Source: Chiloscyllium plagiosum (lineage: Eukaryota). From it: 21,130 bases of DNA. Below, piece after piece: positions 1,461 to 21,130 of the stretch (position 1 is its first letter; each line of letters starts with the position of its first letter). The stretch lies in contig NC_057718.1 of NCBI RefSeq assembly GCF_004010195.1, forward strand, positions 68,892,449 through 68,913,578, read 5' to 3'. The position numbers were made by a program, and so were the translations under genes. The notes below the pieces were generated by a model, which saw nothing but the letters and a program-made list of their open reading frames with translations, made no database searches and was not told where the DNA came from.

Positions 1461-1816
1461 ACCCTTGTTGCAACTGCTACCTCTGGAAGCAGGCATCAGA
1501 TAGCAGTTAAGGTGGGTGAATGACAAGGCCAACAAGCCGTGGAGGTGTACCACTCTTTATTGCAACAGTAACCCAATTGTATTGAACAGTACCATTCCTC
1601 ATCCCTAAGCCCCATCCTTATTAAATGCCTGTGTCCCATAGTCACTCTTAGTACTCCACATCACTCCACACCCATTCCTGTGCTACCTCTTACTTCCATT
1701 GTCCTTTCATGTCCCCTTCATATCACCTGCCTCTTTAAGGTTTTCTCCATATTCTGATAGCCACATCCAGTATCCACAACAGGTAGAGTTCAGGAACATG
1801 TCTTTGAAATGAATTA

Positions 1817-2269
1817 GGAGAAAGTGAGGACTGCAGATGCTGGAGATCAGAGCTTAAAAATGTGTTGTTGGAAAAGTGCAGCAGGTCAGGCAGCATCAAA
1901 GGAACAGGAGAATCGATGTTTTGGGCATAAGCCCTTCTTCAGGATTCTCACAGGAATATACAGACCTTGAACTCTACCTATTTCACCTTTAAAGGCTTGC
2001 TGGAGGTACCTTTGCCAGCAAACAAACTACTCCAATCAACACCTGCCCACTCCTGGTCTATATCCCTCCAAACCTTTCCTATTCATGTATCCATCCAAAT
2101 GTCTTTTAAACATTGTAATTGTACCTGCATCCAGAACCTTCTCAGGAAGTTCATTCCACACTTAAATCGCCCTTTGTAGGAAGAAGGGCTTAAGCCCGAA
2201 ACGTCGATTCTCCTGTTCCTTTGATGCTGCCTGACCTGCTGCGCTTTTCCAGCAACACATTTTTAAGCT
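1817..2269 (-). mobile_element. Penelope-like inverted-terminus insertion with a captured local segment
   Basis: Arm 1817-1944 and arm 2180-2269 are inverted copies; flanked by 'ctttgaaatgaat' at 1802-1814 and 2268-2280; same family as 17694-17935 and 20492-20592. Confidence 0.85.
1944..2178 (-). repeat. Inverted duplicate of 3940-4174
   Basis: Manual alignment: 235 bp, no indels, 9 substitutions; ORFs 1967-2179(+) and 3939-4220(-) give near-identical peptides. Confidence 0.95.
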
Positions 2270-2314
2270 TTGAAATGAATGAGGAAAAAAAAATTCTATC
2301 GATTTAAAAGAGTG

Positions 2315-2761
2315 GACTCAATGGTCTGAGTTATCGGGAGAGGTTGGACAAGCTAGGACTCTTTCCTAAGAACATAGGAAACTGACGGGGGATCTTGTAG
2401 AAGTGTATAAGATCATGAAATGCATTGTTAGGATAATTGCACTCTATCTATTTCCCAGGTTTGGGGAATTGAGGACTAGAGGGCATCGGTTTAAGGTTAG
2501 AGGGAAAAGAATAAAAGGGAACCTGAGGAGCAACTTATTGACACAGAGGGTGGTACGCATATAGAATGAGCTGCCAGCAGAAATGGTTGAGGTGGGTACA
2601 ATAACACCATTTAAAAGGCATTTGGACAAATACGTAGATAGAAAAGGATTAGAAGGATATGGGCCAACAGGGGAATGGGATTAGCGTGGACGGACATTTT
2701 GGCTGGCATGGACCAGTTTGGGCTAAGGGCCTGTCTGTGCTGTAGAACTCAATGATTCTAT
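2315..2761 (+). mobile_element. Short CR1 3'-end copy
   Basis: 'gagaggttggacaagctaggactc...gggcctgtctgtgctgtag' tail; candidate TSD 'gagtg' at 2310-2314 and 2762-2766; resembles 5714-6150. Confidence 0.8.
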
Positions 2762-2989
2762 GAGTGCTCATTAAAAACATGTGTATTTTCAAAAAAGCTC
2801 CAGACCCATTCAAAATGGTAAATCTTCTCTGAGCAAGTTACCCAAAAGGTGGATGATGACACAGTAGTAGATGTTGTTTATTTGAATTTTCAGGAACTGT
2901 TGCATGGTCAGGTGCTGAGGAAGGAGACGTGGTTGTAGTATGGGTCTGCTTCAGGACTTGGTTGAAGAGGTTCAGGGTAGAGGAAATGA

Positions 2990-4078
2990 CCTGCAGTAAA
3001 GCCTTTGACAAGGTCTGCATGGTAGACTAATTAGTAAAGTTAGGTCACATGGAATTCAGGCCGCGCTTGCCAATTGGATACATAATTGGCTTAACAGCAG
3101 GAGACAGAGTAATGGTGGTGGAGGGTTGCTTTTCAGACTGGAGGCCTATGACCAACAGTATACCACAGGGATTGGTTCTGCATCCTGTTTTGTTTGTCAT
3201 TGCATTAAATGATGTGGATGAGAATATAGAAGGCATGGTTAGTAAGTTTGTGAATGACACCAAAATTAGTGTCATAGTAGACAATGAAGAAGGTTTTCTG
3301 AAGTATTAAAGGGATCTTGATCAAATGGGTCAATGGGTGAAAAATGGCAAATGGAGTTCAATCCGGGTAAATGTAAGGTTTTATATTCTGCTACAACAAA
3401 CATGGGTAGGATACATGCAATAATGGTAGGGCCTTGGGTAGTGTTATAGAACAGAGGAACCGAGAGGTGCAGGGACATAATTCTTTAAAGTTTGCTTCAC
3501 ATACAGACAGCGTGGTTAAAAGGCATTTGGCACTCTTGACGACTTTGTTCGGTCCTTTAAGTATAGGACTTGAGAAGTCATGTTGAGGCTGTACAAGACA
3601 TTGGTGAGACCTCTTCTGGAATACTGCATCCAGTTCTGGTCACCTAGTTACAGTAAGGATATTATTAAACTGGAGAGGGTTTAGAAGAGATTTACCAGCA
3701 ATTTGCTGGGTATGGAAGGTTTGGGTTATAAAGAAAGGCTGGACAGGTTGAGACATTTTTCACTGGAGTGTAGGAGGTTGAGAGGTGACCTAATAGAAGT
3801 TTATAAAATAATGAGTGGTACAGGTAGAATTGATAATAGTTGTCTTTTCCCAGAGATGGGGAATTTCAAGACTAGGGCGCATGTTTTTAAATTGAGGGGT
3901 GAGAGATTTAAAAAGACATAAGAGGCAGTTGTTTTTTTTTACAAAGGGTGATTTAAGTGTGGAATGAACTTCCTGAGAAAGTGCTGGATGCAGGTACAAT
4001 TACAATGTTTAAAAGACATTTGGGTGGACACATGAAAAGGAAAGGTTTGGAGAGATATAGACCAGGAATGGGAAGGTG
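2990..4078 (+). mobile_element. 5'-truncated CR1 LINE; its 3' tail resumes at about 6151-6232
   Basis: Degraded RT peptides (IPQGLVL, FVNDTKI, YKERLDRL...RLRGDLIEVYKIM); sequence breaks after 'aggtg' at 4074-4078 and continues 'aggtgggactagtttag' at 6151. Confidence 0.85.
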
Positions 4079-6150
4079 TTGATTGGAGTAGTTTGTTTGC
4101 TGGCAAAGGTACCTCCAGCAAGCCTTTAAAGGTGAAATAGGTAGAGTTCAAGGTCTGTATATTCCTGTGAGAATGAAAGGAAAGGCAACGTTGACAGGAA
4201 TAGGGAACCCTGGCTGTCAAGAGATATTGAGGCTTTGACCAGAAAAAAGGAGGTAACTGGGATCAAGGGAATCCCTGAGGATATATAGGGGTTACAGAAG
4301 TTAACTGAAGAAGGAAATTAGGAAGATGAAAAGAGGGCGTGAGATAACTTTGGCTGGGAAGGTTAGGGTGAATCCAAAGAGGTGTTTTAAGTATGTTAAA
4401 AGAAAAAGAATAACTAGAGAGAGAATAGGACCCCTCAAGGATCGTAGTGGACATATATGTGTAGAACTGCAGGAGATGGGTGACGTCCTCAATGAATACT
4501 TTTCCTCCGTGGGGAAAGACATGAAGAGTTGGGAACTTAGGGAAAATAGTGGTCATTTCTTGGAGGCAGTCCATATCACAGTAGAGGAGGTGTTGGATGT
4601 AATAGAATGTATGAAGGTGTATCAACCTCCTGGTCTTGACCAGATATATCCAAGAACACTGCAAGAGGTTCGAGAAGATGACTGATATTTGTCATCATTG
4701 TTAGCCATGGGTGAGGTCCTGGAATATTGAAGGGTAGCGAATGTTGTGCCCTTATTCAAGGAGGGCTGCAAAGAAAAACCTGGGAACTACAGACTAGTAA
4801 GCCTAATGTCTGTGATAGGTAAGTTACTTGAGAAGATTCTGAGAGATAAGATGTACATGCATTTGGAATGACAGGGTTTGATTAGGGATAGCCAGCATGA
4901 CTTTGTGGGAAATCATGCCTAACAAATTTGTTAGAATTCTTTGAAGTGACCAGGAAAGTAGGGCAGGGCAAAAGACATAATGTATAAGAATTTCAGTACG
5001 ACCTTTGATAAGGTTCCACATGGTCGGCTGCTCTGGAAGGTTAGATCACATGGAATCCAGGAGGAACTGGCAAATTGGATGCACAATTTGCTTAATGGAA
5101 GGAAGCCGAGGGTAATAATGGAAGGATGCTTGTCAGACTGGAAACCTCTAACGAGTGGAGTGCCTCAGGGGTCGGTGCTGGCCCCATTGTTGTTTGTTAT
5201 CTTTATCAATGATTTGGATGAGAATGTACAAGGCATGATTAGTAAGTTTGTAGATAACACTAAAATAGGCAGTATCGTGGACAGTGAGGAAGGTTTTCAG
5301 AAATTGCAGCTGGACCTTGATCAGCTGGGGAAGTTGGCCAAGAAATGGCAAATGGAGTTTAATATAGATAAGTGTGAGGCCTTGCATTTTGGAAAGTCAA
5401 ATCAAGATAGGAGTTTCATGGTGAATGTTGAGGCCTTAAGGAGTGTAGTGGAACAAAGGGACCTTGGAGTGGAAGTGCACAGTTCTCTGAAAGTGGAGTC
5501 ATAGGTAGGTAGGGCAGTGAAGAAGGCTTTTGGCACACTGGCCTTCATCAGTCAGGGCATTGAGTATAGAAGGTGGGAAGTTATGTTGCAGTTGTACAGG
5601 ATGTTGGTGAGGTCGCAATTGGAATATTGTGCTCAATTTTGTTCACCTTGTTAGTGGAAGGATGTTATTAAACTGGAAAGAGTACAGAAGAAATTTTGCA
5701 AGGATGTTGCCAGGACTCAACAGTATGCGTTCTAGCGAGAGATGGGATAAGCTAGGACTTCTTTCTTTAGAGTTAGGAGACTTAAGGGGGAGCTTATAGA
5801 AATGTATGAGATCATGAGAGGAATGAATCGGGTAAATGCACTCAGTCTTTTTCCCAGGGTTGAGGACTAGACAGCATCGGTTTAAGGTGAGAGGGGAAAG
5901 AATAAAAGGAACCTGACTGGCAACGTTTACACAAAGGATGGTGAAACATGGGATGAGTTGCCAGTGGAAGTAAAGTTCGCTGCATTAACAACATTTAAAA
6001 GTCATTTGGACAAATACATGGATAGAGAAGGTTTAGAAGAATATGGGCCAAGTGCAGGGAAATGGGGTTAGCGTGGATGGACATTTTGGCCGGCATGAAT
6101 GAGTTTGGGCCAAAGGGCCTGTCTCTGTGCTTTAAGACTTCTCTGACTTT
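4079..6150 (+). mobile_element. Nested 5'-truncated CR1 LINE (ORF2 linker, RT and 3' tail)
   Basis: ORF 4326-4685 (NPKRCFKYV...PGLDQIYPRTL) and ORF 4980-5504 ([25 protein letters not shown]); TSD 'aggtg' at 4074-4078 and 6151-6155. Confidence 0.9.
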
Positions 6151-8920
6151 AGGTGGGACTAGTTTAGATTGCGGTTATGTTTGGCATGGACTGGTTGGTC
6201 TTAAGGGTCTGTCTCCCTGCTGTATGATTCCATAAGTGTGTCTTGCAGCAAATGCTGATGAGATAGTTGGTGGCAGCTGAACCAAAGTTTCAAAGTGACT
6301 GTTTAAGGCACAAAATCATCCCATTTGCAGTTATGTAGAATTAAAAAGGGGTGGGTGGAGATATTTGGAAAAGAGGTTAGTCTGTTAACTTGGAAAATTG
6401 CCCAGGAGCAAAACTTTCTTGTGCACTTTGGAGTTTAAATATTTGGCTCTTGGCTGCATTGTTTTCTAGGTAAAGGTAAGAGTAATTGTTTAAGTATTCT
6501 AAAATCTGATTACCCCTAACAACTCCACATTCTCCACAGCTAGGGTTTTTCTCACTTCCAGAAGTCTGCAGTTCGTATTCCTTGCTCTCTAGCAAATATT
6601 CTTGCCTCATATTTTCTATTTGCATGATTGTACAAGAGGACCGTTGAAAAAAATTCTCATGATATCAAAATTCCAAATGTAAAGTTGATTCTTGCAAATC
6701 AAATTTATTTCAGATAGCATTCATTATTCATCTCAATTGACTGACAAGTTGGTTAATTTAAATTCAGAGGTGTTAAGCAGCATGGAAATACGCCCATTGG
6801 ACAAATTAGTGTGTGCCAACCAGGGTTCCTAAACTGAATGAATTCCATTTGTTCCTGTTTGGCCCATATCCCTTGAAACATTTCCTATCGGTGTTCCTGT
6901 CCAAATGTCTTTTTAGCATTGACCACTTCCTCTGGCACTTCAATCTATATATGTACCACCCTCTGGGGGAAAACATTGCTCCTCATGTCCTTTTAAAATC
7001 TTTTTTCCTCTCACCTTTCAACCTATGCCCTCTAGTTTTGAACTCCTCCCTATCTTGGGTAAAGACCTTGGCTATTCACCTCATCTATACCCCTCACGAT
7101 TTTATGAATCTTTGCGATCTCCCCTCAGGGTCCGATGCTCCAGAGAAAGAAGGCTTCAACCTAACCAACCTCTCCGTACAACTCGAACCTTCCAGTTTTG
7201 GCAACATTCTTATAAATCATTTTTGCGCCCTTTCCTGTTTAGTACCATTCTTTCTATAGCAGAGCGATGAGAATTGTATGCAGTAGTCTAAATGTGGCCT
7301 TACCAATGTCTTGAACAGCTGTAACATGACATCCCAACTTCTATACTCAGTGCTCTGACCAATGAAGGCAAGGATGCCAAACACCTTTGGCATCACACTG
7401 TCTATCGGTAATGATACTTTCAAGGAAATATATACTTGTACTCCTATGTCTCTCTGTTCAACAACACTCCCCAGGGCCCTGTGCCATTAACTGTCCAAGT
7501 CCTGCCCTAGTTTGTGTTTCCAAAATGCAACACCTCACACTTATCTGAATCAAACTCTATCTGCCATTTCTCAGCCTACTGATCATGATCCCGTTGCAAT
7601 CTGAGATAACCTTCTTCATTGTCCTCTAAAACACCAATTTTGGTGTCTCACACAAACTTATTGACATCCCTCCTGTATTCTCATCCAAATCATTTATATA
7701 AATGACAAACAACAGTGGACCCAACACCAATCTTTGGGGTACACCACTGGTCCCAGGCACCCAGTTTGGAAAAACAACTATCTAGCATCACTCACTGTTT
7801 CCTACATTGATGCCAATTTTGTATCCAATAGGCTAGCTCTCCCCTGGATTCCATGTGATCTAACGCTACCAATTTCATCTACCATGCAGTATCTTGTCAA
7901 AGGCCCTGTTAAAGTTTCTGTAGATAAAGTCTATCATGCTGTCATCTATCTTCTTGATCATCTTTTTAAAAAACTCAATCAAATTAGTAAGACATGATTT
8001 CCCACACACAAAGCCATGCTGACTATCCTTAATCAGTATTGCTTTTCCAAATGCATGTAAATCCTGTCTCTCAGAATCCTCTCCAACAACTTCCCACCAC
8101 TGACATTAGGCTTATTGGTCTGCAGTTGCCAGTGTTTTCCTTACAGTCTTTCTTAAATAATGGCACAACAATAGCCACCCTCTAGTCTACTGGCACTTCA
8201 CTCGTGGCTGTTGATTATACAAATTATCTCTGTAGTGGCCATGCAATTTCTTCCCTTGCTGCCCATAATGTCTTAGATCAGGTTCTGGGGATTTATCTAC
8301 CTTTATGCATTTTAAGACATCCAGCACCTTCTCTTCTGCAATGCAGACTCTTTTCAAGACTTTACTGTTTACTTCCCTGAGTTCTCTAGTTTCCATGTTT
8401 CATCCATGGTAAATGAGAAATATTTGTTTAGGATCTGACCCATCTACCTTGGCTCGAGATGACCTCACTTATCTTTTAAGGGGCCTTATTCTCTCCATAG
8501 TTACTCTTTTGCCTTTAATATGCTTGTAGAATCTCTGGATTCTCCTTAACCTCATCTGGCAAAGCTATTTTATGTCCCCTTTTTGCCCTCCTGATTTCCC
8601 TCTTAAGTGTACACCTGCAACCACGATTCTCCTCAAAAGATTCACTTGATCCCAGCTGCCTCCTTTTTCTTGACCGAAGTCTCAATTTCTGGAGGCATCC
8701 AGCGTCCCCTATTCCTACCAGCCTTGTCCCTTACACCAATAGGAAGTGGTCCAGGACATTCAGCCTCGGACCTTCGGGCGACCATCCTCCAAGGTGGACT
8801 TCGGGACAGGCAGTAGAGGAACGTGGCCGAGCAGAGGCCGATAGCTAAGTTCGGTACCCACAGGGAGGGCCTCAACCGGGACCTTGGGTTCATGTCACAT
8901 TACAGGTGATCGCCATTGCA

Positions 8921-8949: not shown

Positions 8950-9017
8950 ATACTTTCAGTTACATCACACTGCAGATCTGTGCAATAAATTCTGTGTTAC
9001 GATCAAGCCCTCTGCAA

Positions 9018-9056
9018 ACACCTGATGAAGGAGCGTCATTCTGAAAGCTATTGTGC
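9018..9056 (+). ncRNA. Minimal type I hammerhead ribozyme motif, degenerate
   Basis: CTGATGA 9022-9028, imperfect stem II, GAAA 9043-9046, palindromic AGCT stem III, CUA triplet, potential cac/gtg stem I offset by 2 nt. Confidence 0.65.
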
Positions 9057-11480
9057 TTCCAATTAAACCTGTTGGACTATAACCTGGTGTTGTGTGATTT
9101 ATAACTTTGTACACCCCAGTTCAACACCGGCATCTCCGAATCATATCTCACTGATGAAAGCTTTCCACTTGCTAGACATCCCTTTATGGTGAACAGCCTC
9201 CCACAATTGACTTTTGAAACTTCCTGTTTAAAACCATCAAAATTGGCCTCTCCCCGATTTAGAACTCTAACTTGTAGACCAGATCTATTCTCTTCACAAC
9301 TATTTTAACACAAAGGGAATTATAGTTACTGGTCCCAGAGAGCTCCCCCACTAAATACCTCAGTCACTTGCCCTGGCTTATTTCCCAAAAGTCTTGCCCC
9401 TTTACATTCTCAAAATTTTTGATTGAGAAACTTTTCCTGAACACATTTAACAAATTCCTCTCCATCCAAGTCCTTAACACAGTCCCAGTCTATGTTTGAA
9501 AAGTTAAAATCCTGTACTGTTACAACCCTATTATTCTTAAATCTATCTGTGATCTCCCTACATAATTGCTCATCAATTTCCTGCTGACTATTGGGGGGAC
9601 CTATTGTAAACTCCCATGAAAATAATCACCCCTTCTTATTTCTTAGCACCATCCATTTAGCTTCACTGGACAATCCCTCAGTAATATCCTCTCTAAGTAC
9701 TGCCATGATGTTTTCCCTCATTAAAAAAAAATGACATTCCTCTCCTCTCTTGCTTCCCCTTCTATCCTTCCTAAGGCATCTGTAACGCGGAGCATTGAAT
9801 TTCCTATCCCATCCCTCCCTCAGTTGTTTCTACAATAGCTATTAAATCCCAATCCAATGTACCCATTCATGCCCTGCGTTTATCTGTCTTCCCTGTCAGG
9901 CCTCTTGCGTTGAAATAAATTCAGTTTATTCATCAGTCTTCCCTTATTCCATGCATACTCTTGCCTTCCTTGTCTGTTTAACTTCTGTGCTAACCTCAAC
10001 CTTCTCCTTTTCCTCACTACTTCTGGTCAGACTTGTTTAAACCCTCCCGAGTAGCTCTAGCAAATTTCCCTGCCAGGATATTAGTCCCCCAGAGGTTCAG
10101 GTGCAAGCTGTCCCTCTTGTACAGGTCACCTCTAATCCAGAATAGATTCCGATGATTGCAAAATCTGAATCCTGCACCAGTTCCTCAGCCATGTGTTCAT
10201 CTGCCCTATTCCTGTTCCTACTATGACTAGCACGTGGCACTGTGAGCAATCCCCTCGAGGGGATCCTGCTTTTTAATCTTATGCCTAATTCCCTATATTC
10301 ATTCTGCAGGATGTCATCTCTTTTTTTTTAACCTATGTCATTGGTACAAATGTGTACAGCGACCTTTGGCTGCTCATGCTCCACTTTGAGTAATTGCTGC
10401 AATCGCTCAGAGCCATCCTTAGTCTCAACACTAAGAAGGCAACAAACCATTCTGGAGTCTCTCTAATGGCTACAGAAATGCCTGTCTGTGGCCCTGACTA
10501 GATAACCCCTATCACAGTTGCCTATTTGGAGTTTGCCATAGCCTGCATTACAACAGAGCTAGTCATGGTGTCATACACCTGGGTGCTGCTACTATTTTTC
10601 CCTGAGAGACTGTTTCCCCCAACAGTATCCAAAATAGTATTTGTTTGAGAGGTGGAGAGCCACAGGAGATTCCTGCACTACCTGCCTATCTCTCCTTGTG
10701 GCTGTCCATCTCCCTGACTGAACCTGCCGTGTGACTGCTTCTCTGAAGCTATTATTTATCACACTCTGTATGCATCTAACTGCTGCTCCAACCAATGCAG
10801 TTTGAGAGGAGCTTCAGCCAGACACTTCCTGCAGACTTGGTTTTCAGGCACAGTTGACTGCCATCTGATCTTCCACATCTGGCAGGAGGAGCGTACCACT
10901 CCACTGACTGTCATCTCTGGCCCTTTTAAAAACTAATCAACTTAGGAGGTGAAACAAAACTCTTACCTTGCAGTTATGTTGTTGCTGTCCGCCCTCGTAA
11001 ACAATGCCCATTCTTCACATAACCCCATAACAGCAGCACTTAGACTGTAAAGCAGCCGCTATCAAAAATGGCCCCACTACTAGAGCCTGCCTACCTTTTG
11101 TTCACTGGTGAAACTAACAGCTGCATATCTTTTTAAGCCTTGCAAGTCTCCAAAACTGCTCCTCTTTGCTCCCTGGGCAGATACTGGTGAAACTTAGAGC
11201 AATCCAAATATTAATTTGGGGATTTACTTGAAGTGTTTCGAAAAATGAAGCATGGGAGTAATGTCTGTTTTTAATATGTCTCTATAATGGCTGAAAATGT
11301 GGTTGAGGTTACTCTTTTAGAGGTAAACAACAATCTACACTGAGTTAGGGGTTAGATGGCTGTGTTGGAGTAGCAAAAAGGTGAAAATTGCAACAGTATT
11401 CTGTCCCATTTTGCATTTGTCCACATTGAAACAACTGAGGTTGCCAACTGTCATCAATTTACACAATTGAGATATTTTGC

Positions 11481-11658
11481 AACAAAAACAGAAATTGTTG
11501 GAGAAACACAGCAGATCTGACAGCATCTATAGAGAGAACACAGTTCACATTTTGACTCCAGTGACCCTTCTTCTGATGCTGCCAGACTTGTTGAGTTTCT
11601 CTAACAATTTCTATTTTTGCTTCAGATTTCCAGCACCTTCATATCTTTGTTTTATTTA
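11481..11658 (+). mobile_element. Older Penelope-like inverted-terminus remnant (third family)
   Basis: 'aaaaacagaaattgttggagaaacacagcagatctgacagcatc' is inverted against 'gatgctgccagacttgttgagtttctctaacaatttctatttttg'; flanks 'agatat(t/g)ttgc' at 11470-11480 and 11659-11669. Confidence 0.75.
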
Positions 11659-12200: not shown

Positions 12201-14373
12201 AATCCATTATATGCTCAGATACTTGCTGAAAGTTCATAGAATAACAATTGCACTGCTTTTGTCAATCCTCTGGTTATTTTATTAATGCGCTCATGTTTTT
12301 GAAAAGGCATATAACATTTGCAACTCTTGATTCTTCCAACACCATGCGTCTTCATTTTATCCACTGGTCAGTCTTCTCTGTTGACTGCTCTAAATGAACT
12401 TTTCAATTCTCCTCTGTACTCTCCATATCCTCCTTAATTCTCGAAGATAATATGATTGCAGTATTAATAACAAACTTGACAATTCTGTTTGCTTTTAATT
12501 CCAGTTTCTTTGGCCAACTAGAAAACTGTAGTCTTACTCCAAATATCTGCCTTTGGCCTATATCCTTTAACATTTGTTTAACAAAAATGATCTAAACCAG
12601 ATTTAAATTTGAGAATTGATCAAGCATCAACTGCAGGTTAGAACATAGAACAATACAGCGCAGGACAAGCCCTTCGGCCCTTGATGTTGCGCCGACCTGT
12701 GGACTATTCTCAGCTCGTCCCCCTACACTATCCCAAAATTATCCATGAGCTTATCTTAAGATTGTTTAAATCTCCCTAATGTGGTTGAGTTGACCACCTT
12801 AACAGGTACGGCATTCCATGCCCTTACCACTCTCTGCGTAAAGAACTTGCCCCTGACATCAGTCTTAAATCTATCACCCCTCAATTTGTAGTTATGCCCT
12901 CTCGTACAAGCTGACGTCATCATCCTGGGAAAAAGTCTTTCTCTGTCTACCCTATCTAATCCTCTGATAATCTTTTATGTCTCTATCAAATCCCCCCCCT
13001 TAGCCGCCTTCTTTCCAATGAGAACAGACCCAAGTCTCTCAGCCTTTCCTCATAAGACTTTCCCTCCAGACCAGGCAACATCCTGATAAATCTCCTCTGC
13101 ACCTTTTCCAATGCTTCCACATCCTTTCTGTAATGGGGCGACCAGAACGGTACACAATATTCCAACTGTGGCCGCACCAGCATTCTGTATTGTTGCAGCA
13201 TGATATTGCGGTTCCGGAACTCAATCCCAAAATCCCTAACACATGTATGCCTTCTTAACAGCACTATCCACCTGCGTGGCAACTTTCAGGGATCTATGCA
13301 CATGGACTCCAAGATCCCTCTGCATATCCACACTACCAAGAATCTTTCCATTGACCAAGTACTCTGCCATCCTGTTATTCTTCCCAAATTGCATCACCTC
13401 ACATTTAGCTGCATAGAACTCCATTTGTCACCTCCCAGCCCAATTCTGCAGTTTATCCACGTCCCCCTGCAACCCGTAACATTCTTCCAAACTGACCACT
13501 ACTCCGACTTTAGTGTTGTCTGCAAATTTACTAATCTATCCACCTATGCCTGTGCCTAAGTCATTTATAAAAATGACAAACAGCAATGGTGCCAAAACAG
13601 ATCCCTGTGGAACACCACTAGTAACTGTACTCCAGACTGAATATTTTCCATCAACCATCACTCGCTGCCTTCTTCCAGAAAGCCAGTTTCTAATCCAAAC
13701 TGCTAAATCACCCTCAATTTCATGCCTCTGCATTTTCTCCATCAGCCTACCATGTGGAACCTTATCATAGGCTTTACTGAAGTCCAACTATACCATGTCA
13801 ACTGCCCTACCCTCATCTACATGCTTGGCGACCTTCTCAAAAAACTCAATGAGGTTTGTGAGACATGACCTGCCCTTGACGGAACCATGTTGACTATCTG
13901 AAATAAAATTGTTGCTTGCTAGATGATTATAAATCTTATCTCTTATAATCCTTTCCAAAACCTTTCCTACAACAGAAGTAAGGCTCACTGGTCTATAATT
14001 ACCTGAGTCATCTCTGCTGCCCTTCTTGAACAAGGGCACAACATTTGCAATCCTCCAGTCCTCAGGTATTAAACCCGTAGAAAATGACAACTCAAATATC
14101 AAAGCCAAAGGCTCTGCTATCTCCTCTCTAGCTTCCCAGACAGTCCTCTGATAAATCCCATCTGGCCCAGGGGACTTTTCTACTTTCACTCCTCCTAGAA
14201 TTGATAACACCTGTACGTAACTAACCTCAATCCTTTCTAGTCTAATATCTCGTATCTCATTCTTCTCCTCCACAATATTCTCCTTTTCCTGAGTGAACAC
14301 CGATGAGAAATGTTCATTTAGCACCTGTCCAATCTCTACAGGGTCCACACTCAATTTCCACTTTCCATCCTAA

Positions 14374-14692
14374 CGGTGGCACAGTGGTTAGCACTGCTGC
14401 CTCATAGCGCCAGAGACCCGGGTTCAATTCCTGCATCAGACGACTCTCTGTGTGGAGTTTGCACATTCTCCCCGTGTCTGGGTGAGTTTCCTCTGGGTGT
14501 TCCGGTTTGCTCCCACAATCCAAAAATGTGCAGGTTAGATGAATTGGCCATGCTAAATTGCCCGTAGTGTTAGGTGAAGGGGTAAATGTAGGAGTATAGG
14601 TCTGGGTGATATACGCTTCGGCGGGTCGGTGTGGACTTGTTGGGCCGAAGGGCCTGTTTCCACACTGTAAGTAATCTAATCTAATCTAATCT
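14374..14692 (+). mobile_element. HE1-type tRNA-derived V-SINE, full length, inserted in CR1 ORF2
   Basis: A box 'tggcacagtgg', B box 'ggttcaattcc', V-domain 'gtggagtttgcacattctccccgtgtctg', LINE-like tail 'gggccgaagggcctgtttccacactgta', (TAATC)n end. Confidence 0.92.
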
Positions 14693-14895: not shown

Positions 14896-14975
14896 CTCCT
14901 TCTTCTTCTTAACAAGGGATGCAATTTCTGTCGTACTCCTTCTTCTTCTTAACAAGGGATGCAATTTCTGTCGTA
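14896..14975. repeat. Perfect 2 x 40-bp tandem duplication
   Basis: 'ctccttcttcttcttaacaagggatgcaatttctgtcgta' at 14896-14935 and 14936-14975. Confidence 0.97.
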
Positions 14976-16631: not shown

Positions 16632-17751
16632 CCCTGCTAGTCCCCTAGTCACGAAGTATAAAAGAAGAGACACTTGCCTAATATGTCCCTGGTTTTTAAG
16701 GTTAGAGGAGGTGGTTGGGTGGGAGGCCCTGCAAAGGTAGGGTCTCGGGTTGAGAAGACACCGACTTATATAGCAGGACAGAAATAAAAATAAGAAGTCC
16801 CTCCTTTCCCAGAAACCTCTGCTCTCTGACTTCAACTTTAAAAGCACAAATCAATGACTCACTGCTCCCAGCAGTCCCCTGGTGCAAGCTGCCGCCCTTC
16901 GAGTTGCTGCTGCCACTGCCGCTTAAAAACAGGTTGTGAAAGAGAATTCCAAACCTCTGTCATCCTTTGTGTGTAGAAGTGCTTCATCACGTCATTCCTG
17001 ATAATTTCCTACTTTTTGGACTATGCCCCTGTGTTACAGAATCTTCAACCAGTGAAATAATTTATCTTTGTCTATTCTGTCTTTTTCTGTTACTATTTTG
17101 AAGACTTCAATCAGATTATCCTTTAACCTTCTAAATTTCAGAGAAAACAGCCTAATTTATATAATCTGTCCTCATTACTTAACCCCTGAAGTCCAGGCAT
17201 CATCCTTATAAATCTAGGTTGTACACCTTCCAAGGCCAATGCATCCTTCTTAAGGTATGATGCCAGATCTACTCACAGTCCTTGAAGTATCTTCATCTAT
17301 GGTTATTCTTTTCCATTGCAGCAATAAACCTAATATTGTGATTAATGTTTCCATATTCTGCTTGCATTTCTCTTTTGTCTGATTCCTTCAGATTTCTGAG
17401 CAACTGTTTATTCTCGTGCCAATTGTTTCTCTGCCTTTAATATTGTTCCTCTCTGCTTCATCTTGGCTCTCTTTCCCCTTCCAAATTAGTTTAAGTTGCT
17501 TTTGGTATACTGCTCTTAATTCAAGTAGTGCAGTGGGATATTTTATGCTAACCTTAGAGGGCTGATGATACCTTGGTTTGACATCTCAGGTAGAAAATTA
17601 CTACTGTGATAGTGCAGCATTTCCTCAGTATTGCACTGAAGTGTCAGACTAGATTCTGTGCTCAAGTTCTGAGGTTGGAATTGAATCCATAATAGCTGAA
17701 AATGTGTTGCTGGAAAAGCGCAGCAGGTCAGGCAGCATCCAAGGAACAGGA

Positions 17752-17789
17752 GAATCGACGTTTCGGGTATAAGCCCTTCTTCAGGAATG
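17752..17789 (-). ncRNA. Minimal hammerhead ribozyme motif, core intact
   Basis: Reverse complement reads cattc-CTGAAGA-agggcttataccc-GAAA-cGTC-gattc. Confidence 0.75.
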
Positions 17790-17805
17790 CCCGAAACATC
17801 GATAT

Positions 17806-17843
17806 CATTCCTGAAGAAGGGCTTATGCCCGAAACGCTGATTC
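17806..17843 (+). ncRNA. Minimal hammerhead ribozyme motif, cleavage triplet mutated
   Basis: CTGAAGA 17811-17817, gggc-ttat-gccc stem II, GAAA 17831-17834, then cGCT instead of cGTC. Confidence 0.65.
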
Positions 17844-18167
17844 TCCTGTTTCTTGGATGCTGCCTGACCTGCTGTGCTTTTCCAGCAACACATTTTCAGC
17901 TCTGATCTCCAGCATCTGCAGTCCTCACTTTCTCCATTGAATCCATAATATCCAAACTCGGAATGCTTCCATTGTGTGACGGCTGAAATTTATACAAAAT
18001 GTATTTATAATGTACATTTATATCTATGATACACATGACTTTATGTATTTTTAAATGTGAAAAATGAATATTAGATTATAATGCTTACTTTTGTATAGTA
18101 TATGTGCATAATCATTGCACCTGGCCATCTATGAAGTGAATAAAATGCATTGACTGTGATTTTGCAG

Positions 18168-18264
18168 GCATTTGATTTTGCTGAGACAGCAGTATGGGAG
18201 TCAAGTCATTGTTAACCTGCTAAGAATTAAAGGAGGAGAGGAGGTTCTTAGCAGGGCTTTTAAG
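18168..18264 (+). CDS. SYNJ2: Internal coding exon of synaptojanin-2 (SAC phosphatase domain)
   Basis: 'ttttgcag|G ... AAG|gtaggg'; 97 bp, phase 2 to phase 0; from 18169 translates [32 protein letters not shown], close to human SYNJ2 as recalled ([32 protein letters not shown]) and closer than to SYNJ1. Confidence 0.9.
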
Positions 18265-19672: not shown

Positions 19673-20765
19673 GAGAGAGAAAGTAATCTACGAGGCCAAA
19701 TTAACAAGGAATATAAAAACTGACAGTAAGAGCTTCTTTAAATATATAAGAAGAAATAGAAAAGGTCAAAATGAACATAAGCCCTTTAGAGCTAGAATCT
19801 AGGGAAATAGTTTTGGGGAATGAGAAAATGGATATTTTGTACTCATCTGATATGGTAAAAAATACTTGGAGCATCTCAGTAAATATAAAAACATAGGGGA
19901 GGAATTATTTTCTCAACATCACTTGAGAAATAGTAATGAGACAAACTAATGGGGCTAAAGGTAGGTAAGTGTCCTGACCCTGATGGCTTGCACTCGAGGA
20001 TCTGAAAAGAGGTAGCCACAGAGATAGTGGATACATTGTTGTTACATTCTAGAAATCTTTGGATCTTGGAGAAATACCTGAGGATTGGAAAAGTGTCATG
20101 TGACACCTAAATTCAATAAAGGAGAAAAGTAAGGGAAAAAGTGCATAACTGTAGGCTGATTAGCCTAACATCTATTGTTGGAATTATTATGGAGGAAATG
20201 ATAGCTGCAGATTTGGGAAATCATTAATCAAGCAGAGTCAGCATAGCTTCATAAAAAGGAAATCATATCTGACTAATTTATTATTATTTTTCAAGCAAGT
20301 CTCAACCAAAGTTGACTGAAGGGAACCAATACATATGTTGTATTTGGACTTCCAGAAGGTGTTCAACAAGATATCTCACAAAAGGTTGAGTGATAGGGTG
20401 TTCGAGGCAGTATAGGCATGGATGGAGAATTGGCTGATGGGCAGGAAACATCAGTGGGGATAGAGTTTTTTTAGCTTGGCACTCTGTAAACCATTCCTGA
20501 TGAAGGGCTTATGCCCGAAACGTTGACTCTTCTGCTCTTTGCATACTGCCTGACTGGCTGTGCTTTTCCAGCGCCACACTTTTCGACCCTGACCAGGTGG
20601 GGTTCCACAGAGATCCGTGTTGGGACCGCATTTGTTTACAACATATTATTGACTTGGAGGAAGGAAGCAAATGTACAATAGCCAGATTTGCAGATGATAT
20701 AAAAATTGGTGGATAGGCAAGTTGCGAGAAGAATATAAACCGTTAACGAGGATAGATTGATATTT
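19673..20765 (+). mobile_element. Old CR1 ORF2 fragment (probably continuing from about 18670-18860)
   Basis: Degraded DNA for KCPDPDGLH, YLDFQKVFNK, GVPQRSVLGP and FADDIK motifs. Confidence 0.8.
20492..20592 (+). mobile_element. Solo Penelope-like terminal arm with intact hammerhead core, inserted in CR1
   Basis: cattc-CTGATGA(20497-20503)-agggcttatgccc-GAAA-cGTT-gac; 'acca' on both flanks (20490-20493, 20592-20595); CR1 resumes with 'gtggggttccacag'. Confidence 0.85.
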
Positions 20766-20773
20766 GAGAATTT

Positions 20774-20850
20774 CATAGAATCCCTACAGTGTGGAAACAG
20801 GCCATTCGACTCAACAAGTTCACACTGAATCTACGAAAAGCATTCCATCC
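20774..20850 (-). mobile_element. 3' end of an HE1-type SINE, interrupted by a PLE
   Basis: 'ccctacagtgtggaaacaggccattcgactcaacaagttcacactga' is a diverged reverse complement of the SINE tail at 14625-14669. Confidence 0.8.
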
Positions 20851-20860
20851 GGAATGGTCG

Positions 20861-21130
20861 GACGTTTACACCGCTGAGGCTAAACGCCAGCTCACGGACA
20901 CCTCCTCCTACTGCCCCCTTGACCATGACCTCACCCCCCACCACCAAACCATCATCTCCCAGACCATCCATAACCTCATCACCTCAGGGGATCTCCCATC
21001 CACCGCCTCCAACCTCATAGTCCCACAACCCCGCACCGCCTGTTTCTACCTCCTGCCCAAAATCCACAAACCTGACTGCCCCGGCCGACCCATTGTCTCA
21101 GCCTGCTCCTGCCCCACCGAACTCATCTCT
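20861..21130 (+). mobile_element. 5'-truncated Penelope-like element, RT N-terminal region, running off the window
   Basis: 90 uninterrupted codons: DVYTAEAKRQLTDTSSY...FYLLPKIHKPDCPGRPIVSACSCPTELIS, with the PLE RT motif LPKIHK...RPIVS. Confidence 0.92.

What the first reader, a model, noticed from the sequence alone, without database searches (positions are those of the whole stretch)
1802..4174. Penelope inverted termini enclosing a captured, inverted copy of DNA from about 2 kb away
Seen: TSD, long PLE arm (1817-1944), 235-bp reverse complement of 3940-4174, short PLE arm (2180-2269), TSD. The copied segment spans the junction at 4078/4079 where one CR1 inserted into another, so it should come from this locus rather than from a dispersed CR1 copy. 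Established: PLEs often leave an inverted 5' pseudo-LTR. Inference: during a single integration the PLE RT or a repair polymerase jumped from the element to neighbouring DNA (or the host pre-mRNA) and back. This would be a PLE-driven local capture mechanism that makes MITE-like cassettes with host cargo; I do not know of it being described.
Basis: partly seen in the sequence, partly recalled or inferred. Interest (0 to 1): 0.75.

Follow-up and report, generated by a model that had tools for sequence, protein, structure and literature searches.

The report
Neighbouring DNA trapped in Penelope fold-back
An old, dead stub of a Penelope-like jumping gene carries, between its two mirror-image halves, a 235-base backwards copy of DNA from about 2 kb away, most likely picked up when a polymerase briefly borrowed a nearby template while the insertion was being sealed, a kind of slip known for other retrotransposons but hardly documented for this class.

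Summary
The anatomy is as described: 13-15-nt target duplication, long arm 1817-1944, 235-bp inverted copy of 3940-4174 (226/235 identical, ungapped), short arm 2180-2269. The copy crosses a nested-LINE junction (4078/4079) that sits at single-copy depth in a public run, so its source is this locus. Contigs from three species labels join the left flank to the arm, so the insertion is old. No listed contig covers the two inner junctions, so the spacer itself is not read-verified. The arms fit the known PLE 'inverted copy plus 34-nt tail' pattern. New here: a 7-nt snap-back-like word with a 6-nt microhomology at the arm/spacer junction, and a + strand SacI-domain exon, which makes host pre-mRNA a template of the right polarity. 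Best reading (0.62): two target-primed cDNAs were joined after one end copied local DNA or nascent RNA. Main rival (0.22): a later repair patch at the centre of an already inserted palindrome. 'MITE-like cassette' is not supported. Local templated and pre-mRNA captures are published for L1, and cargo between pLTRs for rotifer PLEs. A kilobase-range local source inside a PLE fold-back was not found in my searches. New variant of a known kind.

The parts
1802..1816 (+). Left target-site duplication (13 nt exact, 1802-1814; probably 15 nt with one later substitution; 80% A+T)
1817..1944 (-). Long arm: 3' module of a PLE-type repeat, sense on the - strand, with a decayed minimal-hammerhead core near 1912-1942 and a 34-nt tail at 1817-1850
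   Evidence: 122-164 contigs per listed row with unrelated AT-rich loose ends before 1815-1816 mark the family end
1943..1949 (+). Arm/spacer junction word: reverse complement of arm-internal 1908-1914; its last 6 nt are also the donor end 4169-4174 (snap-back-like signature and effective 6-nt microhomology)
   Evidence: 112 of 12942 simulated junctions reach 7 nt or more; post hoc
1944..2178 (-). Captured spacer: inverted copy of 3940-4174
2179..2179 (+). One base that belongs to neither donor nor arm; no exact microhomology at this junction; the donor end abuts a T run
2180..2269 (+). Short inverted arm, lacking the 34-nt tail; shares two variants with the long arm that both arms of the second window copy lack
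2268..2282 (+). Right target-site duplication (13 nt exact, 2268-2280)
   Evidence: contig X4 2241-2346
3940..4174 (+). Donor segment: 139 nt of LINE copy A plus 96 nt of LINE copy B
   Evidence: contig X14 4031-4247 bridges the A/B junction
4079..6150 (+). 5'-truncated LINE copy B (CR1-like, name recalled) nested in copy A; the rest of A follows at 6151-6235
17680..17950 (+). Second copy of the same family: 15-nt exact TSD, short arm, short self-templated centre, long arm with the same 34-nt tail; internal control without foreign cargo
18168..18264 (+). Probable coding exon of a SacI-domain host gene (recalled resemblance: synaptojanin-2); indicates host transcription on the + strand
   Evidence: Pfam Syja_N E 2.5e-4 and 7.3e-5, below the curated cut-off; splice-like AG/GT ends seen

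Best explanation
One PLE integration made the whole cassette. The element's endonuclease cut both strands about 15 nt apart in A+T-rich DNA. Each 3' end primed reverse transcription on a short hammerhead-bearing PLE RNA, one at the tail end and one 34 nt inside, giving two cDNAs of the same sense growing towards each other (inferred from the known two start sites). These ends are not complementary and had to be joined. One end first paired with cDNA and gained about 5 nt, which created a 6-nt match to 4169-4174; 235 nt of the neighbourhood were then copied as far as a T run, and the ends were sealed with one extra base. The template was either local DNA (for example the right-hand end folding back on its own resected strand, or strand invasion) or the nascent + strand host pre-mRNA copied from the left-hand end; I put these at about 55:45. 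Shown: anatomy, local source, common template variant of both arms, old age. Inferred: twin priming, capture in the same event, the enzyme, the template. The product is an inert scar, not a mobile unit.
For: Ungapped 226/235 match across a locus-specific junction, at single-copy depth in X14 (27.1 against 22.8-28.4 for three flank contigs) and X2 (16.8 against 14.3-14.4). The cargo sits exactly between the arms, with both arms nearly complete at their inner ends. Both arms share two variants absent from the second window copy, and the family-wide loose-end consensus behind 2263 differs from both arms. Both window copies have the same 34-nt tail offset, matching the two RT start sites and two-strand extension shown for the anole PLE (PMC11167929). 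14 of the 15 joints shown (of 1465) are arm-to-arm joints with varying second coordinates, so the centre differs between copies. Copy 2 has a self-templated centre. Ages agree: spacer/donor 3.8% (CI 1.8-7.1), arm/arm 5.6% (1.8-12.5), flank against species C 4.0% (2.7-5.9), with the left junction present in all three species labels. Mismatches split 3 spacer-derived, 4 donor-derived, 2 unclear. Precedent in L1 and R2.
Against: 0 of the 32 listed contig pieces (384164 more not shown) cover the spacer or its inner junctions, and the outer-junction contigs hold only 20-29 nt of arm, short of the tool's 31-letter bridging rule. The confidence intervals are wide enough for the spacer to be younger than the arms. 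All 9 mismatches lie in 3949-4073 and none in the last 101 nt (Fisher 0.012 for the A/B split, 0.057 as a scan), which a single copying event does not predict. The spacer/short-arm junction has no exact microhomology. The 7-nt word was noticed after the fact and could be part of a variant arm. Published L1 templated insertions are typically within 15 bp of the site, not 2 kb.
Confidence: 0.62

Rival explanations
1. Two steps. The PLE first inserted as a near-perfect 90-bp palindrome. Later its centre broke (hairpin or cruciform cleavage) and host repair patched it with a templated copy from 2 kb away, which also stabilised it. The PLE only supplied the fragile site.
For: Palindromes provoke breaks and are stabilised by central rearrangements or spacers (review PMC8701086, passages). 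Templated inverted insertions at breaks arise without any retroelement (PMC11724301, passages). Spacer/donor divergence (3.8%) is nominally lower than arm/arm (5.6%). TSD and shared arm variants do not discriminate.
Against: In the mouse palindrome cited there, 93% of 118 rearrangements were deletions and spacer inclusion was uncommon. The arms here lost only a few bases at the centre relative to other copies. Three of the five arm mismatches are CpG transitions (read), so the arms need not be older.
Confidence: 0.22
2. The spacer came from another copy of the nested junction (a segmental duplicate or an amplified chimeric LINE), or was already part of the PLE RNA template, so the 2-kb proximity is incidental.
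For: No genome was available, so copy number was not counted. The uneven mismatch distribution could reflect a composite origin.
Against: The contigs over the junction are at single-copy depth in 2 of 4 runs. In 19 of 79 columns where the window paralogues agree, donor and spacer both differ from them. A distant source landing 2 kb from its twin is unlikely.
Confidence: 0.07
3. Assembly artefact: a fold-back chimera joined the arms to nearby sequence.
For: The spacer is not seen in the listed contigs; 101 nt are identical to the donor; the window has a gap of Ns.
Against: Nine differences, four of which restore the state of the paralogues, cannot be produced from the donor by error. Both outer junctions are approached by contigs of other samples or species. 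The X2 donor contig ends at 4103, exactly 30 nt past the last donor/spacer mismatch, as expected if a second copy joins there (weak: other repeats also break contigs).
Confidence: 0.05

Closest known systems
EN+ Penelope-like element insertions with inverted 5'-truncated copy and one-sided 30-40-bp tail (PMC8557442 passages; PMC3846280; PMC11167929)
   Same: TSD, inverted arms, 34-nt one-sided tail, minimal hammerhead core, A+T-rich target.
   Different: The arms are separated by 235 bp of non-PLE DNA from the same locus; no ORF.
Host DNA between pLTRs in Adineta vaga (PMC3846280)
   Same: Unrelated sequence between PLE terminal repeats, whole unit inside a TSD; template jumps proposed for internal inserts.
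   Different: There the main case is a gene between two direct pLTRs, read as mobilisation in trans to a new site; sources were not shown to lie next to the target. Here the cargo is at the inverted junction and comes from 2 kb away.
L1 templated insertions and co-inserted vicinal pre-mRNA (bioRxiv 10.1101/2024.08.27.596794 section 4; PMC10191854 passages)
   Same: Non-element template under 250 bp copied during integration; one L1 case from pre-mRNA transcribed near the site; fold-back synthesis of 52-220 bp; twin priming.
   Different: Different retroelement class; the 22 L1 templates lie typically within 15 bp of the site; somatic events, whereas this one is fixed or shared across three species labels.
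R2 snap-back and 'extra template' 5' junctions (PMC11371274 passages)
   Same: cDNA 3' end primes further synthesis on itself or, less often, on nearby target DNA before the junction forms.
   Different: Engineered system, single cDNA, site-specific target.
Templated inverted insertions at double-strand breaks (PMC11724301 passages)
   Same: Fold-back on resected DNA, synthesis, release and end-joining give an inverted local copy.
   Different: Mostly 5-34 bp, next to the break, no retroelement.

Membership tests
EN+ PLE insertion unit | Inverted 5'-truncated copy next to the sense copy | tested here: met
   85 of 90 complementary; same in copy 2
EN+ PLE insertion unit | One-sided 30-40-bp tail | tested here: met
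   34 nt in 2 of 2 paired copies
EN+ PLE insertion unit | TSD at an A+T-rich target | tested here: met
   13 and 15 nt exact, 80% A+T
EN+ PLE insertion unit | Minimal hammerhead in the pLTR (core boxes, helix II, palindromic 15.2-16.2, helix I) | tested here: inconclusive
   Core boxes and helix II are visible and fit the description in PMC4209133; only the 20492 copy has the canonical first box; helix I is not formed in the other copies; folds are weak (z -0.5 to -1.6, one positive); Rfam gave no hammerhead hit
EN+ PLE insertion unit | Linked ORF with telomerase-like RT and GIY-YIG endonuclease | not testable with these tools
   No ORF is attached to the arms and no genome was held. The ORF piece at 20840-21130 has no Pfam or PDB hit; the Atlas gives DUF8422; its PLE RT likeness is recalled
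Templated insertion made during retrotransposition | [quoted passage not shown] | tested here: met
Templated insertion made during retrotransposition | Cargo and element arrived together (no allele with arms only) | tested here: inconclusive
   Inner junctions not shown; divergences overlap
Templated insertion made during retrotransposition | Microhomology or untemplated bases at the switch points | tested here: inconclusive
   1 nt strict, 6 nt if the snap-back word is counted; 1 extra base at the other end
MITE | Multi-copy unit of conserved length and interior, mobilised by a DNA transposase through its TIRs | tested here: not met
   Centres differ between the two window copies and among family joints; arms are unequal retroelement ends; cargo junction at single-copy depth
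pLTR-mediated mobilisation of host DNA in trans (rotifer type) | Cargo framed by direct pLTRs and copied to an unlinked site | tested here: not met
   Cargo lies between inverted arms, 1.8-2.2 kb from its source

The most novel reading that the evidence does not exclude
PLE twin-primed integration regularly leaves two free cDNA ends whose joining samples the local nascent transcript or chromatin loop at kilobase range. The very abundant fold-back stubs of this genome would then be a fossil library that records how PLE integration is resolved and whether the RT reads host pre-mRNA, and a steady source of small inverted local duplications, some of which could be re-mobilised between pLTRs.
Probability: 0.3. 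Interest if true: 0.68.

Novelty: new variant of a known kind. Interest (0 to 1): 0.42.

Why it matters
How PLEs make their inverted ends and close the 5' junction is stated to be unresolved (PMC8557442, PMC11167929). A cargo with a known local source marks the junction as a site of open 3' ends and template search. Its strand, its side relative to the long arm and its distance give a direct genome-wide test of RNA against DNA templating. As a single locus it is an inert scar with no evident function; the 235-bp inverted repeat could pair within the intron RNA, but nothing here shows an effect.

Tried and rejected
No whole genome was held, so the genome BLAST and the genome-wide spacer survey could not be run. 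An exact 24-nt arm pattern found 0 matches in metagenome contigs and 0 in viral contigs. Rfam gave 1 chance-level hit and no hammerhead. No RNA holder was listed among the runs; this says nothing on expression, and no RNA run was laid. Raised depth of contigs over 4078-424x (X2 24.9, X4 29.6, X9 9.5) fits a collapsed second copy, but other repeat contigs are equally raised (X9 13.3 and 15.8; X4 24.6 and 28) and X14 shows little rise, so I do not count it. Absence of spacer contigs from the listing is not counted as absence: the list is cut and bubbles are collapsed. A Pfam scan of 112 stop-free + strand stretches outside the main repeats found no second SacI exon (2 chance-level hits), so the gene's upstream exon is not located; my own splice-site scan missed the exon that Pfam supports and was dropped. 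PDB search of the exon gave only designed repeat proteins. Alignment A4 was uninformative. Sequence and near-place look-ups of earlier findings returned nothing. PMC12016303 had none of the 5 terms; the retrozyme preprint had nothing on capture. Rejected: MITE; ribozyme cleavage as cause (the junction lies upstream of the core, not at the cut site); independent LINE insertion into the palindrome (no LINE 3' tail, no own TSD, crosses a private junction).
Full report
Observation. The repeat scan lists the spacer/donor pair as the longest inverted repeat of the window. Base by base, 1944-2178 matches the reverse complement of 3940-4174 at 226 of 235 positions without gaps; of the 11 BLAST rows only the self hit and the donor cover the whole spacer, and the next is 78% over 63 nt. 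Among 29 self-matches of the window, no other pair outside the arm family exceeds 78.5%. The short arm 2180-2269 pairs with 1851-1940 at 85 of 90. An exact 13-mer flanks the unit (1802-1814, 2268-2280), extending to 17 of 18; random pairs never exceeded 9 nt in about 3000 draws.

The donor junction. The LINE piece ending at 4078 continues at 6151: both halves map end to end on an uninterrupted paralogue, with the same 5-mer at 4074-4078 and 6151-6155. Both copies give RVT_1 hits on the + strand (3 of 17 stretches). So copy B is nested in copy A, and the junction combines a truncation point with a target site. 'CR1' is my recalled label. I laid 4 of 24 listed runs (all assembled contigs; X2 may come from the study behind the assembly). 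The junction is therefore not part of a high-copy consensus. A genome-wide count was impossible.

Read support and age. Contigs run from the unique left flank into the arm in 3 of 4 runs: X2 to 1836 (0 differences in 635), X9 to 1841 (20 in 616), X14 to 1841 (26 in 642); X4 stops at 1595. One contig (X4 2241-2346, 2 differences, 1 gap) crosses the right junction. These hold 20-29 nt of arm, under the 31 that the tool asks for. Taken at face value, the insertion is shared by three species labels that differ by 3-4%. None of the 32 listed pieces (384164 not shown) covers the spacer or its inner junctions, so these rest on the assembly. Against an artefact: of the 9 mismatches, 4 have the paralogue state in the spacer, 3 in the donor and 2 are unclear, as expected for two old copies drifting apart. 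Spacer/donor 3.8% (CI 1.8-7.1), arm/arm 5.6% (1.8-12.5) and flank against species C 4.0% (2.7-5.9) overlap. Unexplained: all 9 mismatches lie in 3949-4073 and the last 101 nt are identical (Fisher 0.012 for the A/B split, 0.057 as a scan); chance, later gene conversion or consensus polishing are possible.

The arms. A second copy at 17680-17950 has a 15-nt exact TSD and the same 34-nt offset between long and short arm. The two arms of the finding share two variants that both arms of copy 2 lack, so they derive from one template variant. In the runs, more than a hundred contigs per row have unrelated A+T-rich ends just before 1815-1817, and 14 of the 15 joints shown (of 1465) link 1939-1944 to varying positions 2181-2244. 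These joints have at most 27 nt on the short side and belong to other copies; they show that direct arm-to-arm joins with variable centres are common. This is the published PLE pattern: an inverted 5'-truncated copy and a one-sided 30-40-bp tail (PMC8557442, passages; PMC3846280, parts 1-4 of 5). The anole PLE protein cuts and extends both strands and starts at two sites that bound the tail (PMC11167929, parts 1-2 of 4). A minimal hammerhead core is visible (PMC4209133, parts 1-2 of 4), but Rfam has no hit and no PLE ORF is linked, so membership rests on architecture and motif.

The junctions. Strictly, the long arm and the donor share 1 nt. But the 7-mer at 1943-1949 is the reverse complement of 1908-1914 inside the arm, and its last 6 nt are the donor's end; 112 of 12942 simulated junctions (0.9%) reach 7 nt. 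It appears as a 7-bp stem in the fold. Copy 2 has a centre copied from its own arm through a 3-nt match. I read this as brief self- or cDNA-to-cDNA priming that created a 6-nt microhomology. It was noticed after the fact, and a variant arm end would look the same. At the other junction there is one extra base, no exact homology, and the donor end abuts a T run.

Host context. An open stretch at 18168-18264 with AG/GT ends matches Pfam Syja_N (E 2.5e-4 and 7.3e-5, below the curated cut-off). It covers profile positions 245-279 of 305, so upstream exons should exist; none was found in 112 other stretches. The cassette probably lies in an intron of a + strand gene (inference). An inverted cargo is what the left, long-arm end would make from + strand pre-mRNA. 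It is also what the right, short-arm end would make by folding back on its own resected strand. One locus cannot separate these.

Mechanism and rivals. Best reading (0.62): two target-primed cDNAs, a template jump onto local DNA or nascent RNA, then end-joining. Main rival (0.22): the palindrome inserted first and was patched later; palindromes are fragile, though the cited mouse case gave 93% deletions (PMC8701086, passages), and inverted templated inserts form at plain breaks in yeast (PMC11724301, passages). A distant or pre-formed source (0.07) and an artefact (0.05) are unlikely.

What is known. For L1, 22 templated insertions, typically under 250 bp and within 15 bp of the site (bioRxiv 10.1101/2024.08.27.596794, passages and section 4 part 2); one co-insertion of pre-mRNA transcribed in the vicinity and fold-back synthesis of 52-220 bp (PMC10191854, passages); templated genomic insertions in L1-expressing clones (PMC11702581, passages); chimeras by template switch or twin priming (PMC13174262, passages). 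For R2, snap-back on cDNA or nearby target DNA (PMC11371274, passages). For PLEs, host DNA between pLTRs within TSDs in a rotifer. I found no report of a kilobase-range local source at a PLE inverted junction in searches; the library lacks most subscription papers, and I saw no figures or supplements, so the distance in the L1 pre-mRNA case is unknown to me.

Earlier notes of this scan (unchecked, leads only) mention four more local captures in PLE stubs of this genome, 85-236 bp from 0.7-1.3 kb, one capture of an R2 piece, and a PLE-independent inverted exon copy. I could not test them. They make a genome-wide survey worthwhile but add no support here.

Verdict. Real in the assembly, local in origin, old, most likely a by-product of PLE integration. 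Not a MITE and not shown to be mobile. New variant of a known kind; interest 0.42, rising to about 0.68 if the survey shows a regular kilobase-range, transcription-linked capture.

Noticed in passing
window 18168-18264 (+): Probable exon of a SacI-domain gene (Pfam Syja_N, below cut-off); resemblance to synaptojanin-2 is recalled.
   Followed up: partly
window 17680-17950: Second fold-back copy of the same family with a 15-nt TSD and a short centre copied from its own arm.
   Followed up: yes
window 1944-2044 vs 4074-4174: 101 identical bases while the remaining 134 carry all 9 mismatches; the boundary falls at the 5-nt duplication of the nested LINE. Unexplained.
   Followed up: partly
window 20492-20592: Single, more diverged arm of a related subfamily with the canonical first hammerhead box, inserted in a LINE fragment.
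   Followed up: partly
window 11483-11619: Older inverted pair (72% self-complementary) of another PLE-like family, without a spacer.
   Followed up: no
window 9015-9140: Hammerhead-like short repeat of a third family (label recalled).
   Followed up: no
window 20840-21130 (+): 97-aa open frame cut by the window end; no Pfam or PDB hit, Atlas neighbours carry DUF8422; looks like the N-terminal part of a PLE reverse transcriptase (recalled).
   Followed up: partly
window 14896-14975: Perfect 40-nt tandem duplication inside a LINE fragment, about 240 nt from the N gap.
   Followed up: no
window 14370-14680: tRNA-like head followed by a LINE-like tail, probably a SINE (recalled).
   Followed up: no
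table 5c, run X14, 3877 to 1816: A high-depth contig joins LINE sequence like 3877 to the arm's tail end: probably an amplified arm insertion in another LINE copy.
   Followed up: no
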